DNA of 64,000 bases from Octopus sinensis (taxonomy: Eukaryota): the NCBI RefSeq assembly GCF_006345805.1, contig NC_042997.1:159092001-159156000 (forward strand), read 5' to 3'. Made by a program: the position numbers. Positions 28,447-36,208 of this stretch are shown here, piece by piece (the stretch's first letter is position 1; every line of letters begins with the position of its first letter).

Positions 28447-28483
<37 letters not shown>

Positions 28484-29922
28484 AAATTTAGAGGACTGAC
28501 CACTAAAAGTGGACAGCCTATATGCTAAACATAGACGCCAAATCGCCATTACCACGAAGAATGTGTTCTCAAGAAAAATCTCAGCTAAAAACCAAAATGT
28601 AAAAATAAGCAAGACAAATGAAAATATACGAAATAAAAAACGATTACCTATGTGCCAATGGTTTCACTTGTTAATATTTACGTATATGGACACACAAACA
28701 TCTGCAAAATCATCAGCATAGTCTGTCGTTTACAAAATACAATTTCCAGAACTAGATACAGAACGCTCAATCGAAATCCAGCAGGTATAAAGTTCTACAA
28801 ATTATATTTAAATGTATCTTTCAAATGTCTTCACTTTGGCGCGCTGAAATCGGAAACTACTCTGCAGTTGATAAACTACAGCAGTCAATTTACCAGTAAT
28901 TTTTAATCTTCAGATTTAAAAAAAAAATATGCTAAGCCACTGGTTTTAATTGATTAATATCAATTTCTACCCTTATTTAATTTTAAATATATATAGGAAA
29001 ATGTGTTGCTGAAAATGCACCTAATTTCAAAAACTCGTAAATGTGACGTTAGCAACTGGTGTTTGTACAAACACCAGTTGCTGACGTCACCTAAATCCAA
29101 ACCAATCAAAACCGAACTTCAGCAAATAGAACGAAATTACCCTTTAAGAGAACCAACCAGCCGGAACGACTTATGACCGTCTCTACAGAGAAACCAACCA
29201 GAACGACAATCTTGACCACCGGAAAAAAACGTCACCAGTATTTTAACGAATCAAAAGTCAGATCCGCTCGCGGAAAAAAATTATAAATACATCTGATCCC
29301 AAAACATACCACTAGAAGCGAAAGCGTCAACGGAATGAGGATGAGAGAAGCTGTAAACCAAATTCCTTTTTTTACTATTTTCACTTCTCCTTTATTTTTT
29401 TCAGTATGACTTGTCGACCACCTTTGTACATTCAAACAAATTGATATGCAGTTTTAATATTATTGACTGCTATGAACATTCAAACTTGCACCTGTCCTCC
29501 TAATTCATAATGCTAAATTTATCTGTTTTGAACATGTTAATTTGTCAACATTGAAACATTTTTATTTGCCAACATTGAAACTTTTAAAGATGTTTTTTTC
29601 TAATTCATAATTTTAAACATTTACCATTGATAAACAAAGATGTTTTTATAATTCATAACTTTAAACTTTTACCATTGATAAACAAAAAATACTGTTAAAA
29701 CTAGTTTGGTATATATGTAAATAAATGTATTTTAAGCATTTACGAGTTTTTGAAATCTAGGTGCATTTTCAACAACACATTTTCCTATATTTTTTCTTGC
29801 GTGGAAACACCCCTCACGCATTTCTTTTTTTTTTTTTCATATTCGTTTTCCACATACTTGTTAACATCCCCCAGGCTTGTTAATTTTTTCTTTGTTCCCG
29901 GGTGAGGATCTTTATATTGACC

Positions 29923-29988
<66 letters not shown>

Positions 29989-30013
29989 TTAATATAGTTG
30001 TGGTATATATATA

Positions 30014-30059
<46 letters not shown>

Positions 30060-31684
30060 GGTATATATATCTAATACAGGATAAAATTTTTCGAAAAAAA
30101 TTCTATCAATGGCCAGCATATTAAAAAAATACATTTAAAGGTTAAATTTATAAACAAGGGCAAAAGAAAAAATTTCTAATGCCGAAAATAGACACATCGT
30201 CAATAACCATATAATTCATCACTATAAGCACGCGTCTCGAAGAAAGCCGACAGAAATTTCTAAAAAATTCCATTATTATCATATCGGACCCGATTTCAGA
30301 GTTAACTCATAAGAACCTTCTCATCGTCAGTGATAAGTGCGGCAAAGAAATAAATGAAATACTTACCTATAACCCATGGAAGAATAAATGATGAATTATA
30401 TGGTTATTGACGATGTGTCTATTTTCGGCATATTTGGCGTTAGAAATTTTTTTCCTTTGCCCTTGCTTATATGTTGTTTATATAGGTATATATATATATA
30501 TATACCACAAAAATAAAGAATGAACAGGTGAAACACGGAGTTAGACCGTTTCATAGGAAAGTGATATTTGTTACATAAGTTGTAACATACAGAAAAACAC
30601 CTTAGCTAATCTTCAGGTCCTGTTACTTCACTGTTGTTACATTGTCGTGTGAAGATGAGTAAATGAATTCTCACAGTGGTCGCGTAGCTGACAGGTCGCA
30701 AATTCTGTCTCACTTTTTTCTATCCTTTGGGATGTCTTCTAAGGGTTACCCACTATTCTTGTCTTTTAGGCCCAAAGGCTATATTTTGCTCGTTTCTTAT
30801 TTATTTCATCTTTGTCCATCGTCCTAAATCACATTTATTCACTTTCTTATGTCTACTCTGTATTGTTTTGTTTGCTTTCGGCCCTATATTCCCCGCAAAT
30901 TTTTGCGAGCACCGCCTGCAGTTCTCAGTCTGTGAAGTTCCCAGTCTTATCATTAATGGTACGAAACTGAGGATTATCATTTGGTTGATAACTGATGAAG
31001 AATCAAGAACCTTCTGCGTCTGTCTCCCGTCCGGTTGTACACTTAGTATACATTATGTCGTTTGCTTATTTACCATACACTTTTTCATTTATTAAGTAAC
31101 GAATGCAACGCACACCGTATTGCATGTGTGTGTGTATATATGAATGTATGTACCAGTAAAGTTAATCGCCACATCAAAGTGGCTGTTCCATGTTACTACA
31201 AGCGTAACCCCAGGCAGATCTTCCGCCAGCTGGTTATCGGTGCAGCCTGCACCCTGTGCATATATATTGCTAGTAGAGGAGCAATAGTTGTAACATGGAA
31301 CAGCTACATTGATGTGGCAATTAACTTTACTGGTTAGTATAGTTACTACACTGATCTCTTCTTGAGATTTTACAACTAGCTCCTTTGCTTGTTGCAAATC
31401 TGTGACAAATATATATATTACTGGCTGGTCAATATATATTACTGTGACCAAAGAACCCCGATGTTGGTGTGTTTATGTCCCCGTAACTTAGCGGTTCGAT
31501 AAAAGAGAACGATAGAATAAGTACTAGGTTTACAAAGAATAAGTACTGGGGTCGATTTGTTCGACTAAAAGTGGTGCTCTAGCATGGCCGCAGTCAAATA
31601 GCCGAAACATATAAAAGAATAAAAGAATATTACAATTTTTCTTTTGTTAAAATACCATAATAAAAAAAACGTGAAAACCAGATT

Positions 31685-31727
<43 letters not shown>

Positions 31728-33841: not shown

Positions 33842-33924
33842 TATATATATATATATTATATATATATATATATATATGTTCATATATTTACAAATATGTA
33901 AGAATACACACACTCACACGCACG

Positions 33925-33955
<31 letters not shown>

Positions 33956-34376
33956 GTGTGTGTATGTATATATGCATGTATATATATATAGAGAGAGAGA
34001 GACTCACGGGTGCGTGTGTGGTAAGAGCCTTCCTTCCCAGTCACATGGTTCCGAGTTCAGTCCTACTGTGTGGCACCTTGGGCAAGTGTCTTCTGCTATA
34101 GCCTCGGGCAACGAAAGCCTTATGAATGGATTTGGTAAACAGAAACTATTGTGTGTGTGCGCGTGTGTGTGTGTGTGCGTGCGTGTGTGTGTTGGTATCT
34201 ACTGTTGGTGTGTTTACGTCTCTGTAACTTATCGGCTCGTCAAAGTGACCGCTAGAATAAGTACCAGGTTTTAAAATAATAGGTATTGTGATCGATTCGT
34301 TCGACAAAATTTCTTCAAGGCGGTACTCCAGTATGGCCACAGTCTATCGTCTTAAACAAGTAAAAGACAAAAGATG

Positions 34377-34407
<31 letters not shown>

Positions 34408-35302
34408 TCAAATTTAAAATGAGGGTAAGAAACTGGATATTAATTTAATTAACACCAGTGGTCTAGCATATTAAAATCTGAAAGTTCAGTAAGTTGTATT
34501 ATATACATATGAGAGGGATGACCACTATGTAGACAACCCTTATGCTAGAATTAGATCCGCTATGGTCTTACCACTAGGAAATGTTCTCAAGAAAAAAAAA
34601 TTAGCAAACACCAGAACGTAAGCGAGCGAGACAAATGAAAAGTAACAAATACAGATTATTCATATACATGTTTCACTATTAACAGATTACGTAATATTAC
34701 TTACGCAATTGTCCGTAGATCTTCAGTCTGACCGTCCATGCAAATATAATTTACAGAGCTGCCGATGCCTATGAGCCTCTAAAAACATATATATTTCAAG
34801 TGAAAATAGAAATGTTACATTTCTATATCTCTCAGAGAGATTTATACAGTAGCAGCACGATAAAGTGATGACATGTTGTCACCTTAATGTGACAGTCCCA
34901 GACTTCACTCCAGACTGATGATGAGCAAATGACTCTGAAACTAGTCTCTGGATGCTGATTTCGCTGGGTGGAGGTGCTTATCTCGCTTTTGAAAACATAA
35001 GGACACAGAAAATGTGTCATGGCCAGTTGGAAACGGTACTTCCTGGAGCTAAATAGCAGTAGCATTCTTTCCTTTCATAGGACTGTCACAATAAGTTGAC
35101 AACATGCCATCAGTTATATATATATACACCGTTCACACCTTTCTTATGGGTTCGAATATGCTTAAGGCACATTCGAACCCGTATATACTGAAGAGATGAT
35201 AACCACTCAGAAATGCACTTCGAATATGCCTCACGTCTATTTTACTTGGTAACAAGTTTGTATTTATATACATCACTGCTTAGCGCTATCATCACGTGTG
35301 TG

Positions 35303-35372
<70 letters not shown>

Positions 35373-36208
35373 ATAAGATTAGCTCGTATACGAGTGGGTA
35401 TATATTTGTAAAAAATGAAGTTCGAAAATGCTGCTATATTAGACAAATTTTTAATTTTTATATATACATTATTTATTTAACATGTTTCGGTTCTTGAAAT
35501 GATGAACCTTATCAAAAAATTATATATAAAAAAGATAGTTCATGCTATCAAATATAAAAAATTCATATATAATATACAATAGAGTCAGACATCAAAAGTT
35601 CATATATAGTGAAGTGAGTTCATGCTATATGTTTAAAGAGTATGATGTAGTAGTTCATAGTGGTGATATGCATTCAATATAAAAAATAGTTCATAGTGGT
35701 GATATGCATTCAATATAAAAAATTGATGTTCTTGAAAAAGCGAGGAATTCATTTTAGATTTTACCTTGAGCAACTGTGATGACTTTTGGTCGGTGTCCGC
35801 TCGGACAGTTCTGGCGAACCTTGTGAATTGTTTGGGTTTTATATCACCTGTTAGGTGGCCAGTCCAGCGGAACGAGACGTCATCAACGTTTTGACCAATC
35901 GTTTCGTTAGGTGGCTAGTCAAGCAGAACGCATATCACCACTATGAACTACTACATCATACTCTTTAAACATATAGCATGAACTCACTTCACTATATATG
36001 AACTTTTGATGTCTGACTCTATTGTATATTATATATGAATTTTTTATATTTGATAGCATGAACTATCTTTTTTATATATAATTTTTTTGATAAGGTTCAT
36101 CATTTCAAGAACCAAAACATGTTAAATAAATAATGTATATATAAAAATTAAAAATTTGTCTAATATAGCAGCATTTTCGAACTTCATTTTTTACAAATAT
36201 ATATATAT

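What the first reader, a model, noticed from the sequence alone, without database searches (positions are those of the whole stretch)
28480..36201. Dense cluster of diverse hammerhead-bearing mini-elements in (TA)n arrays: a candidate cephalopod retrozyme system
Seen: within ~8 kb, at least six short non-coding units (300-800 bp), each bordered by TA repeats, carry a type I hammerhead with a short, often palindromic stem III (28648-, 30276-, 32078+, 34660-, 34909+, 35476-/36083+). More occur at 3480, 19481, 25618, 55889 and 63629. Most bodies share no obvious sequence, yet the core and compensating stems are kept. Known: Penelope-like elements carry such minimal, dimer-cleaving HHRs; animal non-LTR retrozymes are non-coding HHR units thought to use PLE machinery through circRNA; some PLEs target microsatellites. 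Inference: this is a large, diversified population of non-autonomous HHR retroelements served by the Neptune-like PLEs whose remnants lie in this window. I cannot confirm that these families are undescribed.
Basis: partly seen in the sequence, partly recalled or inferred. Interest (0 to 1): 0.85.

Follow-up and report, generated by a model that had tools for sequence, protein, structure and literature searches.

The report
Penelope-type hammerhead mini-elements in TA repeats
A TA-repeat-rich stretch of this animal genome is peppered with short non-coding retroelement copies that each carry a minimal hammerhead ribozyme of the kind already known from Penelope-like retrotransposons, so it is a clear example of a known phenomenon rather than a new system.

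Summary
The hammerhead (HHR) motifs are real and lie at the stated coordinates. I found one more at 60043+. Seven motifs are complete and five are decayed. Shuffled sequence gives almost none: 5 observed against 0.03 expected, and 4 against 0.003. Rfam reports none at its gathering scores.

All 12 motifs face a TA tract 13-258 nt downstream. Three broken GIY-YIG endonuclease remnants of Penelope-like elements (PLEs) lie elsewhere in the window. One is followed by an HHR in the same layout as the short units.

The units also show other PLE insertion signs:
- a partial tandem, 31721-32345;
- a 99% head-to-head inverted pair, 35399-36203, with a one-sided 31-nt tail;
- U3-A8 core variants;
- palindromic helix III.

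All of these are already described for PLE minimal HHRs.

Best reading: these are PLE-driven, target-primed insertions into (TA)n of HHR-bearing RNAs. At least one family is truly short, with a 429-nt unit. The retrozyme/circRNA label is not met, because no unit has two tandem HHRs. The host being a cephalopod, and any genome-wide abundance, stayed unchecked. Verdict: new member of a known kind, modest interest.

The parts
31721..32345 (+). Unit with A-B-A partial-tandem structure. A is 31721-31916 and is repeated at 32150-32345; B is 31917-32149. The repeat unit is 429 nt and non-coding. It is flanked by TA tracts at 31691-31723 and 32341-32350.
   Evidence: Self-BLASTN gives 31721-31928 = 32150-32356 at 96%. 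The pairwise alignment shows 4 differences within A and places the left homology edge 6-9 nt after the HHR cut site. The 429-nt unit folds at -120.5 kcal/mol, z -5.8, with 0 of 100 shuffles as good.
32079..32148 (+). Complete type I hammerhead: helix I 5-6 bp, core CUGAUGA, helix II 4 bp with a 35-nt loop, GAAA, 6-nt palindromic helix III, A17. Predicted cut is after 32143.
   Evidence: Rfam Hammerhead_HH9 scores 21.9 bits, E 0.0016 in a 141-nt search, below the gathering score of 52.
34860..35114 (+). 255-bp unit that folds as one long imperfect hairpin. Its outer arms are about 34866-34899 and 35081-35114. It ends in the TA tract 35115-35126.
   Evidence: Sequence read. Fold is -88.3 kcal/mol, z -5.2, with 0 of 200 shuffles as good. 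Both strands fold equally well.
34909..34952 (+). Complete hammerhead: helix I 6 bp, CUGAUGA, U.U plus a 3-bp helix II, 6-nt palindromic helix III, C17. Cut is after 34946, 169 nt before the TA tract.
30076..30486 (-). Unit between TA tracts 30004-30070 and 30487-30504. It has inverted arms at about 30157-30223 and 30383-30455, with the hammerhead in the part between them.
   Evidence: Self-BLASTN inverted match 30149-30471 at 67%. Arms read. Fold z is -16 on the HHR strand and -10 on the opposite strand.
30276..30336 (-). Complete hammerhead: helix I 6 bp, CUGACGA, U.U plus a 3-bp helix II, near-palindromic 12-nt helix III (4-bp hairpin), A17. Cut is at 30282.
   Evidence: The unconstrained dimer fold pairs the two helix III segments.
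35368..36203 (.). Head-to-head inverted double copy. Arms are 35399-35675 and 35926-36203, 99% complementary, with 3' ends pointing outward and a 250-nt centre. A 31-nt extension (35368-35398) is present on the left side only. The unit is flanked by TA tracts 35305-35367 and 36197-36237.
   Evidence: the repeat finder I1 and I2. TA tracts. BLASTN 35334-36254 inverted.
35476..35518 (-). Hammerhead with a U3-A8 core (UUGAUAA): helix II 5 bp, 6-nt palindromic helix III, U17, and a weak 3-bp A-U helix I.
36084..36126 (+). Mirror copy of the previous motif on the other arm, with G12 replaced by A. It is predicted to be inactive.
28489..28986 (-). Unit next to TA tract 28448-28481. It belongs to the same family as 34511-34860. 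Its RNA is strongly self-paired on the HHR strand only.
   Evidence: Local alignment gives 65.5% identity over 365 columns, score 175 against a shuffled mean of 66 and maximum of 104. Fold z is -5.6. The HHR strand gives z -5.3 with 24 G.U pairs; the opposite strand gives z -1.5 with 5.
28648..28721 (-). Decayed hammerhead: helix I 5 bp and core CUGAUGA intact, helix II 4 bp above a U.U, but an A15.1.C16.1 mismatch and a non-palindromic helix III.
   Evidence: It is not found by the descriptors.
34511..34860 (-). Diverged relative of 28489-28986.
   Evidence: Fold z is -0.8, so it is no longer notably structured.
34661..34730 (-). Decayed hammerhead: core CUGAAGA and the 6-nt palindrome are kept, but helix I is lost through a 5-nt gap relative to its relative.
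25462..26143 (-). 5'-truncated Penelope-like element remnant. It has a GIY-YIG endonuclease reading frame at 25769-26143, then 110 nt, then a hammerhead, then 163 nt to the long TA tract 25401-25456.
   Evidence: Pfam GIY-YIG E 0.0058, 17.3 bits, below the 22.6 cutoff. The ESM Atlas nearest clusters are GIY-YIG, score 0.95. Sequence. The 3' tail does not fold better than shuffles, z 0.0.
25618..25656 (-). Complete hammerhead with a U3-A8 core (UUGAAAA): helix I 7 bp, helix II 2 bp plus a tetraloop, 6-nt palindromic helix III, C17.
50549..50990 (-). Second PLE endonuclease remnant, broken by frameshifts and stop codons. A CX4CX2C motif lies upstream of the GIY-YIG part. No hammerhead was recognised downstream. 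It ends in (CTT)n.
   Evidence: tblastn with the first remnant gives 47% identity, E 1.4e-20. Frames, sequence.
832..1014 (+). Third PLE endonuclease remnant, the C-terminal half only. It starts just after a microsatellite.
   Evidence: tblastn gives 37% identity over 65 residues, E 1e-6. Frames.
63629..63730 (-). Complete hammerhead: CUGAUGA, 9-10-bp helix II with a large loop, 8-nt palindromic helix III, C17, helix I 3 bp. The TA tract starts 50 nt downstream.
60043..60080 (+). It sits at the 5' end of an extra segment of about 100 nt that one SINE copy carries in its internal TA/TG microsatellite and that the other two correctly oriented copies in the alignment lack.
   Evidence: The alignment held 5 SINE copies, 2 of which I gave in the wrong orientation. 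TA tracts 60013-60042 and 60116-60124.
19482..19559 (-). Weak hammerhead: core and 8-nt palindrome intact, helix I 3 bp, helix II 2 bp. A TA tract lies 102 nt downstream.
3479..3525 (-). Decayed hammerhead with a U3-A8 core (UUGACAA): helix I 6 bp, G.U at 15.1-16.1 around an 8-nt palindrome, helix II broken. A TA tract lies 165 nt downstream.
   Evidence: It is not found by the descriptor.

Best explanation
The units are DNA copies of hammerhead-bearing RNAs. They were inserted into nicked (TA)n tracts by the reverse transcriptase/GIY-YIG endonuclease of Penelope-like elements (PLEs), through target-primed reverse transcription.

Proposed steps:
- Reverse transcription starts at an internal site some 40-260 nt downstream of the ribozyme. 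That is why every motif faces a TA tract on its 3' side.
- cDNA synthesis usually stops early, giving 5' truncation.
- Sometimes it runs on into a second unit of a multimeric transcript, giving a partial tandem (a pseudo-LTR), as at 31721-32345.
- Sometimes it is primed on both DNA strands, giving a head-to-head inverted pair, as at 35399-36203.

The ribozymes are the minimal PLE type. Helix III is a 6-8-nt palindrome that can only be completed between two copies, so any cleavage needs dimers or multimeric RNA.

At least the 429-nt family is a short non-coding (non-autonomous) element that must borrow PLE proteins. The 28489-28986 family and the 35368-36203 unit probably are too. The other units may simply be 5'-truncated ends of longer elements.

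Shown: the motifs, their excess over chance, their polarity towards TA tracts, the tandem and inverted structures, and the endonuclease remnants.
Inferred: mobilisation in trans, the reverse-transcription start site, and self-cleavage.
For: 1. Motif excess over shuffles.

2. Polarity. Twelve of 12 motifs have a TA tract of at least 8 nt within 270 nt downstream, against 24.8% of random positions (binomial P 5e-8). With tracts of at least 16 nt, 8 of 12 are downstream and only 2 of 12 upstream.

3. An in-window PLE remnant shows the same layout. The endonuclease frame ends 110 nt before hammerhead 25618-25656, which lies 163 nt before a long TA tract.

4. All three endonuclease remnants are 5'-truncated to under about 900 bp, so heavy truncation is the local norm.

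5. The 31721-32345 unit is an A-B-A partial tandem with a 429-nt unit.

6. The inverted pair has 99% arms and a one-sided 31-nt extension.

7. Every one of these traits is described for PLEs:
- Minimal HHRs in pseudo-LTRs, the U3-A8 covariation, an unpaired base at the foot of helix II, opposite-strand motif pairs 100-700 bp apart, and mostly single dispersed motifs 'probably related to truncated PLEs' (Cervera & de la Pena 2014, Results section read).
- Partial tandems, adjacent inverted 5'-truncated copies, a 30-40-bp tail at one end, and a (TA)n preference (Craig et al. 2021, passages).
- Internal start of reverse transcription downstream of the HHR, cleavage and extension of both DNA strands, and AT-rich targets (Frangieh et al. 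2024, main text read).

8. For non-autonomy:
- No endonuclease similarity anywhere in 28480-36201 at E up to 10.
- Three of 5 in-region units reach fold z of -5 or below in every run, and a fourth (34860-35114) does so in one of two runs (-5.2, -4.1). This compares with 2 of 22 random 350-nt windows and z 0.0 for the PLE remnant's tail.
Against: - No PLE reverse-transcriptase remnant was found in the window. I sent 20 of the 56 frames of at least 110 aa to Pfam, leaving out those I judged to be microsatellite translations. The only RT hit is LINE-like.
- Two of the three endonuclease remnants have no recognisable hammerhead downstream.
- Rfam models do not call these motifs.
- In the one PLE studied in vitro, HHR mutants did not affect insertion, and no RNA ends at the cut site were seen. 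The ribozyme's role is therefore unproven even in the model family.
- PLE pseudo-LTRs can be long and non-coding, so the absence of endonuclease similarity upstream of a motif does not prove non-autonomy.
- Hairpin-like units could owe their fold scores to DNA-level inverted duplication rather than to selected RNA structure. For 34860-35114 both strands fold about equally well. For 30076-30486 both strands are strongly structured, with the HHR strand favoured.
- With one window there are no further copies from which to define family boundaries.
Confidence: 0.55

Rival explanations
1. All units are plain 5'-truncated terminal pieces (pseudo-LTR ends) of ordinary autonomous PLEs. There are no separate non-coding families.
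For: - All three endonuclease-bearing remnants in the window are heavily 5'-truncated.
- Cervera & de la Pena 2014 interpret most dispersed minimal HHRs this way.
- Most units have under 270 nt upstream of the motif.
- In the Anolis PLE the HHR sits at the end of a non-coding pseudo-LTR.
Against: - The A-B-A unit repeats with a 429-nt period, leaving no room for a reading frame.
- None of the units shares sequence with the tail of the in-window PLE remnant.
- No endonuclease similarity occurs in the region.
- The units' RNAs are unusually self-paired while the PLE tail is not.
Confidence: 0.25
2. The units are true non-LTR retrozymes. Tandem monomers are transcribed, cut by two hammerheads, ligated into small circular RNAs, and copied back into DNA by rolling-circle reverse transcription using PLE proteins.
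For: - The units are short, non-coding and low in GC, at 33-35%.
- They carry type I HHRs. The U.U at the foot of helix II is also seen in an axolotl retrozyme HHR.
- Unit RNAs are predicted to be highly self-paired, as reported for retrozyme circles.
- A 1.45-unit copy could come from rolling-circle copying.
Against: - No unit in the window holds two hammerheads in direct tandem.
- The motifs are the minimal PLE type, without a monomer-stable helix III or recognisable loop-loop contacts. Published metazoan retrozymes were defined by canonical HHRs in multimeric arrays.
- The 5' end of the 1.45-unit copy falls 6-9 nt after the cut site. This fits a linear, 5'-cleaved template better than a circle; about 2% would be expected for a random start on a 429-nt circle, and this is a single case.
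Confidence: 0.12
3. The hairpin-shaped units are miniature inverted-repeat DNA transposons of the Tc1/mariner kind, which target TA. They happen to contain hammerhead-like strings.
For: - Several units have inverted arms.
- TA is the Tc1/mariner target (recalled knowledge).
- A Tc1/mariner transposase remnant lies at 38851-39333- (HTH_Tnp_Tc3_2, E 1e-6).
Against: - Complete ribozyme motifs are far above chance.
- They have a fixed polarity towards the TA tract.
- The A-B-A unit has direct repeats, not inverted ones.
- The inverted arms of 35399-36203 are offset from the left TA tract by a one-sided 31-nt extension.
- An endonuclease-bearing PLE remnant shows the same HHR-to-TA layout.
Confidence: 0.04
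4. The motifs are chance matches in AT-rich, repeat-rich sequence.
For: - Rfam finds no hammerhead at gathering scores.
- Five of the 12 parsed sites are defective, and 55889+ fails altogether.
- The core strings are short.
Against: 0 of 200-300 composition-matched shuffles reach the observed counts under three descriptors. The polarity towards TA tracts gives P 5e-8.
Confidence: 0.01

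Closest known systems
Minimal hammerhead ribozymes of Penelope-like elements (Cervera & de la Pena 2014, Mol Biol Evol; Results section read)
   Same: - Type I topology.
- Helix III reduced to a short palindrome that needs a second copy.
- Short helix I.
- A mismatched or unpaired base at the foot of helix II.
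- A U3-A8 core variant: 3 sites plus a mirror copy here.
- Motif pairs on opposite strands a few hundred bp apart.
- Most motifs single and dispersed.
- One motif directly downstream of a PLE endonuclease frame.
   Different: - The host lineage is unknown. It is presumed to be a cephalopod, which is unverified.
- Several motifs have very large helix II loops of 35-77 nt.
- One family repeats with a 429-nt non-coding period.
- Whether these families appear in that paper's supplementary alignments could not be seen.
Neptune/Nematis and other EN+ PLE insertion architecture (Craig et al. 2021, Mol Biol Evol; passages)
   Same: - Insertion bias for (TA)n.
- Partial tandems forming pseudo-LTRs.
- An inverted 5'-truncated copy giving inverted repeats.
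- A 30-40-bp tail at one end only.
- A Zn-finger-like CX2-5CxxC linker before the GIY-YIG domain, seen in remnant 50549-50990.
   Different: - No reverse transcriptase is left in the window, so clade placement by RT phylogeny is impossible.
- The short units have no coding part at all.
Poseidon PLE of Anolis carolinensis studied in vitro (Frangieh et al. 2024, Mob DNA; main text read)
   Same: - The HHR lies upstream of an internal reverse-transcription start, so insert 3' ends fall roughly 100 nt after the ribozyme.
- Targets are AT-rich.
- Both DNA strands can be cut and extended, which would explain head-to-head pairs.
   Different: - Here the HHR-to-3'-end distance is 40-260 nt and varies by family.
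- Nothing here was tested biochemically.
Metazoan non-LTR retrozymes (Cervera & de la Pena 2020, NAR, passages; Li et al. 2026 preprint, abstract and passages)
   Same: - Short, low-GC, non-coding type I HHR units thought to depend on PLEs.
- Predicted highly self-paired RNAs.
- The 2026 preprint derives vertebrate retrozymes from PLE pseudo-LTRs.
   Different: - There are no tandem arrays with one HHR per monomer.
- The ribozymes are minimal rather than canonical.
- There is no evidence of circles.
- Neither paper mentions cephalopods (0 occurrences).

Membership tests
Hammerhead ribozyme, type I | Conserved core C3-U4-G5-A6-N7-G8-A9 (or the covarying U3-A8) and G12-A13-A14. | tested here: met
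   Eleven of 12 parsed sites keep the core: 8 with C3-G8 and 3 with U3-A8. 36084-36126+ has A at position 12.
Hammerhead ribozyme, type I | A15.1-U16.1 pair and a non-G nucleotide at position 17. | tested here: met
   Met in 10 of 12 sites. 28648- has A.C and 3479- has G.U at 15.1-16.1. 55889+ has G17 and was dropped.
Hammerhead ribozyme, type I | Three helices around the core, with helix I open. | tested here: met
   Seven complete motifs. Helix I of 3 bp or more and helix II of 2 bp or more are far above shuffle expectation. Five sites have a broken helix or core.
Hammerhead ribozyme, type I | A score at or above the Rfam gathering threshold for a hammerhead family. | tested here: not met
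   0 hits in the window at gathering scores. The best is Hammerhead_HH9 at 21.9 bits against 52. Only 1 of the 7 in-region sites is listed at E up to 10.
Hammerhead ribozyme, type I | Self-cleavage at the predicted site. | not testable with these tools
   Needs transcription and cleavage assays of monomer and dimer constructs.
PLE minimal hammerhead (min-HHR) | Helix III absent or reduced to a short palindrome, so that only a dimer completes it. | tested here: met
   Nine of 12 sites have a perfect 6-8-nt palindrome from 15.1 to 16.1, and a tenth (3479-) has an 8-nt palindrome inside a G.U pair. One has a near-palindromic 12-mer, one a 3-bp hairpin, and 28648- has neither. Unconstrained dimer folds pair helix III between copies for 3 of 7.
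PLE minimal hammerhead (min-HHR) | Location in the terminal repeat of a PLE next to its RT/EN reading frame. | tested here: inconclusive
   One of 12 motifs (25618-) lies 110 nt after a GIY-YIG frame. The others have no coding neighbour.
Metazoan non-LTR retrozyme | Tandem repeats (dimer to multimer) of 150-450-bp monomers, each with a hammerhead. | tested here: not met
   No two motifs lie in direct tandem. The only direct repeat is 1.45 units with a single HHR.
Metazoan non-LTR retrozyme | Canonical type I HHR with loop 1-loop 2 tertiary contacts. | tested here: inconclusive
   The motifs resemble the minimal PLE variants, and helix I has no closed loop. Tertiary contacts cannot be scored here.
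Metazoan non-LTR retrozyme | Expression as small circular RNAs joined at the cut site. | not testable with these tools
   No transcript data are available.
Autonomous Penelope-like element | A single reading frame with telomerase-like RT and a GIY-YIG endonuclease. | tested here: not met
   Inside 28480-36201 there is no endonuclease similarity at E up to 10 and no RT. Elsewhere in the window there are 3 broken endonuclease remnants and no PLE RT.
Neptune/Nematis clade of PLEs | A CX2-5CxxC Zn-finger-like linker between RT and EN. | tested here: met
   CX4CX2C lies in frame upstream of the GIY-YIG part of remnant 50549-50990. The definition is from Craig et al. 2021. The other two remnants are truncated before this point.
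Neptune/Nematis clade of PLEs | Placement of the RT in the clade by phylogeny. | not testable with these tools
   There is no RT remnant in the window, and no reference PLE proteins were available.

The most novel reading that the evidence does not exclude
This genome, possibly a cephalopod's, hosts recently active families of short (about 250-830 bp), rod-like, non-coding hammerhead elements that act as a PLE-dependent SINE or 'mini-retrozyme' class.

The case rests on three observations:
- One copy starts 6-9 nt after the predicted scissile bond. This would be a genomic footprint that the minimal ribozyme really cuts in vivo and sets the 5' end of the transposition template, a role that is still called unknown for PLE hammerheads.
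- The 98-99% identity of the internal repeats would mean activity is very recent.
- G.U-rich, strand-specific folding would point to a selected RNA structure.
Probability: 0.25. Interest if true: 0.6.

Novelty: new member of a known kind. Interest (0 to 1): 0.35.

Why it matters
The role of the minimal hammerheads carried by Penelope-like elements is still open. The 2020 review calls it a mystery, and the one in vitro study found them dispensable for insertion.

A genome with many young, short, diverse hammerhead units inserted at easily recognised TA junctions would allow a census of insert 5' ends relative to the cut site. That is a cheap, purely genomic test of whether the ribozyme processes the template. 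It would also help to separate non-autonomous PLE parasites from truncated PLE ends in repeat annotation. In the one octopus repeat study I saw, 893 SINE families are left unclassified, and hammerheads and retrozymes are not mentioned.

On present evidence the window adds a clean example rather than a new principle.

Tried and rejected
- Rfam at gathering scores found nothing. The whole-window E-value scan was swamped by microsatellite look-alikes of mir-297, mir-3149 and similar families; I treat those as artefacts.

- My first strict descriptor found only 2 motifs, so I relaxed it in steps with shuffle controls. The U3-A8 core gave 0 hits under the stricter descriptor and 2 under the palindrome descriptor.

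- 55889+ was compared with 63629- and shows no significant similarity: score 44 against a shuffled mean of 37. I dropped it as a hammerhead.

- An HHR-like core on the minus strand of the repeat at 30477-30669 and 32323-32515 was read by eye and rejected, because it has G at position 17 and helix I is out of register.

- ARAGORN found no tRNA-like genes, so I make no claim about tRNA-derived SINE heads.

- Pfam on 20 of the 56 frames of at least 110 aa gave only weak GIY-YIG, RVT_1, zf-RVT and Tc3 HTH hits. I left out the other 36 as apparent microsatellite or low-complexity translations, so a PLE RT remnant could have been missed.

- A PDB sequence search with the endonuclease frame gave nothing.

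- Frames upstream of endonuclease remnant 2 showed no RT.

- Unconstrained monomer and dimer folds are only partly hammerhead-like, and I give them little weight.

- The strand-asymmetry idea is clearest for 1 of 5 units. Two more have more G.U pairs on the HHR strand but are structured on both strands. Raw energy differences between strands are also large in random windows, up to 53 kcal/mol.

- Not done: comparison with Repbase/Dfam or any eukaryotic genome, because no such collection is available here. Supplementary files of the papers were not opened, and the supplementary alignments of Cervera & de la Pena 2014 and Craig et al. 2021 may already contain mollusc or cephalopod examples.

- The claim that cephalopod hammerhead elements are not in print rests only on two results. 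In search 48 the 15 listed papers had 0 occurrences of 'hammerhead ribozyme'. In the term look-ups, Craig et al. mention cephalopods for Naiads only.

- Lunse et al. 2017 is not held. I know it only from a reference list.

Full report
WHAT IS THERE

Eleven can be written as a type I hammerhead: helix I 5' strand, seven-base core, helix II, GAA, helix III from 15.1 to 16.1, a non-G residue 17, helix I 3' strand.

Complete motifs:
- 32079-32148+
- 34909-34952+
- 30276-30336-
- 63629-63730-
- 25618-25656-
- 35476-35518-

Decayed motifs:
- 28648-28721-: 15.1/16.1 mismatch.
- 34661-34730-: helix I lost.
- 36084-36126+: G12 to A.
- 19482-19559-: weak helices.
- 3479-3525-: helix II broken.

55889+ fails. 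It has G17 and no helix I, it has no TA tract nearby, and it shows no real similarity to 63629-.

IS IT MORE THAN CHANCE?

Yes. I used dinucleotide shuffles in 2-kb blocks.
- The simplest signature is GAA, an A...U palindrome, a non-G residue, and CUGANGA within 110 nt upstream. It occurs 5 times against 0.40 expected, with 0 of 200 shuffles reaching 5.
- A full descriptor gives 5 against 0.033, 0 of 300.
- A palindrome-only descriptor gives 4 C3-G8 and 2 U3-A8 motifs against 0.003 and 0.047, 0 of 300 each.

The last two descriptors were widened after I had looked at the sites, which inflates their significance somewhat. The first was not.

Rfam is the main negative. It gives nothing at gathering scores. 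With E-value thresholds, only 32079-32148 appears as a sub-threshold Hammerhead_HH9 match at 21.9 bits against 52. That is expected for motifs without a hairpin helix III, but it is still a failed test.

THREE FEATURES THAT LOOKED LIKE DECAY BUT ARE KNOWN VARIANTS

First, three sites (25618-, 35476- with its mirror copy 36084+, and 3479-) have UUGANAA instead of CUGANGA. C3 and G8 have changed together to U3 and A8.

Second, 34909+ and 30276- have a U.U below a 3-bp helix II.

Third, helix III is a 6-8-nt palindrome in 9 of 12 sites.

Cervera & de la Pena 2014 (Results read) describe exactly these features for the minimal hammerheads of Penelope-like elements. They report the U3-A8 covariation, an unpaired base at the foot of helix II, a short helix I, and palindromic or absent helix III that works as a dimer. 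They also report motif pairs on opposite strands 100-700 bp apart and mostly single dispersed motifs 'probably related to truncated PLEs'. A U.U at the base of helix II is also reported for an axolotl retrozyme HHR.

CONTEXT

All 12 motifs have a TA tract of at least 8 nt within 13-258 nt downstream in the motif's own orientation. Random positions do so 24.8% of the time (P 5e-8). With tracts of at least 16 nt the count is 8 of 12 downstream against 2 of 12 upstream. The ribozyme therefore has a fixed polarity: its 3' side faces the microsatellite.

The clustering in 28480-36201 is partly explained by that region's TA-tract density. P is 0.00075 by length and 0.05 by tract number.

PLE REMNANTS

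The frame 25769-26143(-) has a weak Pfam GIY-YIG match, E 0.0058, below the cutoff, and its nearest ESM Atlas clusters are GIY-YIG.

Using it as a tblastn query against the window found two more remnants. One is at 50549-50900(-), 47% identity, E 1.4e-20. The other is at 832-1014(+), E 1e-6. Nothing was found inside 28480-36201 at E up to 10.

The second remnant is broken by frameshifts and stop codons. It keeps a CX4CX2C motif ahead of the endonuclease. Craig et al. 2021 give this linker as the mark of Neptune and Nematis and as the suspected basis of (TA)n targeting.

All three remnants are 5'-truncated to under about 900 bp.

The first is the key. Its reading frame stops 110 nt before the U3-A8 hammerhead 25618-25656, and the copy ends 163 nt later in a 56-nt TA tract. 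The short units have the same 3' layout.

I found no PLE reverse transcriptase. The RVT_1 fragment at 36898-37272+ is closest to LINE-1 ORF2p and R2 proteins in the PDB, E 0.002.

ANATOMY OF THE UNITS

31721-32345 is A-B-A. The 196-nt A is repeated with 4 differences. B ends with the hammerhead. The period is 429 nt, and the copy is bounded by TA tracts. No reading frame fits, so this family is a short non-coding element unless an internal deletion removed a coding part. Its left edge lies 6-9 nt after the predicted cut site. About 2% would be expected for a random start, but this is one case only.

35368-36203 is a head-to-head pair with 99% complementary 277-nt arms. Each arm has a hammerhead about 80-110 nt from its outer end. 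One arm carries the G12-to-A change. A 31-nt extension is present on the left side only.

30076-30486 and 34860-35114 also have inverted arms.

Craig et al. describe partial tandems, an adjacent inverted 5'-truncated copy, and a one-sided 30-40-bp tail as the usual PLE insertion forms. Frangieh et al. 2024 show that a PLE protein cuts and extends both DNA strands at AT-rich sites. They also show that it starts reverse transcription inside the RNA, about 100 nt downstream of the ribozyme. Together these account for the polarity, the inverted pairs and the tail.

28489-28986 and 34511-34860 are diverged members of one family, 65.5% identical. The other units share no detectable sequence.

RNA STRUCTURE

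The 429-nt unit (z -5.8), 28489-28986 (z -5.6) and 34860-35114 (z -5.2) fold far better than shuffles. The tail of the endonuclease-bearing remnant does not, at z 0.0.

In a rerun with fewer shuffles, 3 of 5 in-region units had z of -5 or below, and 34860-35114 gave -4.1 on the HHR strand. Among 22 random 350-nt windows, 2 reached that level.

For 28489-28986 only the hammerhead strand is structured: z -5.3 with 24 G.U pairs, against -1.5 with 5. That hints at selection on the RNA. For 34860-35114 the two strands fold about equally. For 30076-30486 both strands are strongly structured, z -16 on the HHR strand and -10 on the opposite strand. DNA-level inversion can explain those two.

High self-pairing is a trait reported for retrozyme circles. 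I count it as mild support for non-autonomous RNA elements, not as proof.

INTERPRETATION

The best-supported account is PLE-mediated target-primed insertion of hammerhead-bearing RNAs into (TA)n. At least one family is genuinely short and non-coding. The others are either similar families or truncated ends of longer PLEs.

The retrozyme/circRNA reading fails its defining structural test in this window, because there is no tandem pair of hammerheads. It cannot be excluded for master copies elsewhere.

A DNA-transposon (MITE) reading and a chance reading are poorly supported.

WHAT IS KNOWN AND WHAT IS NEW

Every element of the picture is in print for other animals. A 2026 preprint derives vertebrate retrozymes from PLE pseudo-LTRs.

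I found no paper describing hammerhead elements in cephalopods. In search 48, 0 of the 15 listed papers use the term. The 2026 Octopus vulgaris repeat annotation lists 31 PLE families and 893 unclassified SINE families and has no occurrence of 'hammerhead' or 'retrozyme'. I could not see supplementary files, and I could not verify that the window is from a cephalopod.

I rate it a new member of a known kind. Its most interesting possibility is that insert 5' ends record ribozyme cleavage in vivo.

Noticed in passing
window 47015-47424, 61196-61600, 62150-62524, 59863-60355, 33990-34378; fragments at 7396-7597, 23997-24181, 31458-31668, 44520-44698: A SINE-like repeat of about 400 bp occurs in at least nine copies or fragments at 65-93% identity. 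It has an internal TA/TG microsatellite, which in one copy has received the 60043+ hammerhead mini-insert.
   Followed up: partly
window 30477-30669 and 32323-32515: A 190-bp repeat at 90% identity starts directly at a TA tract in both copies. Its minus strand carries CUGAAGA ... GAAAC with a hairpin after it, but it has G at position 17 and helix I is out of register. I did not count it as a hammerhead.
   Followed up: partly
window 28997-29790: An element of about 800 bp has terminal inverted repeats of about 50 nt and an internal perfect hairpin near 29040-29095. It is flanked by short TA runs and looks MITE-like. This was read by eye only.
   Followed up: no
window 31152-31334; also 51267-51667, 9706-9953, 7209-7321, 27279-27370: Further hairpin or inverted-repeat units without any hammerhead. 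31152-31334 gives one of the two strongest fold z-scores among the random background windows.
   Followed up: no
window 36810-37950 (+): A reverse-transcriptase fragment (Pfam RVT_1, E 9.7e-5) whose nearest solved relatives are LINE-1 ORF2p and R2 proteins. This is a LINE remnant, not a PLE.
   Followed up: partly
window 38511-39333 (-): A Tc1/mariner-type transposase remnant (HTH_Tnp_Tc3_2, E 1e-6).
   Followed up: no
window 63540-63600: A string of about 20 nt ending in the TA tract is duplicated on either side of a TA run, just beyond the 3' end of the 63629- hammerhead unit. It could be a target duplication or a tail.
   Followed up: no
window 33769-33989, 40071-40153, 27283-27366, 7213-7315 and many others: Dozens of sub-threshold Rfam matches to mir-297, mir-3149, mir-466 and similar families fall on TA/TG/CA microsatellites and palindromic repeats. 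They are composition artefacts.
   Followed up: yes
window 12600-12834, 48350-48582, 58795-59003; 1392-1731 and 1815-2194; 52681-53080 and 54943-55326: Other repeat families and local direct duplications at 72-91% identity, of unknown type.
   Followed up: no
window 20295-21401 (+): The longest open frame in the window (368 aa) has only a weak zf-RVT match, E 0.0036. It may be another retroelement remnant.
   Followed up: no
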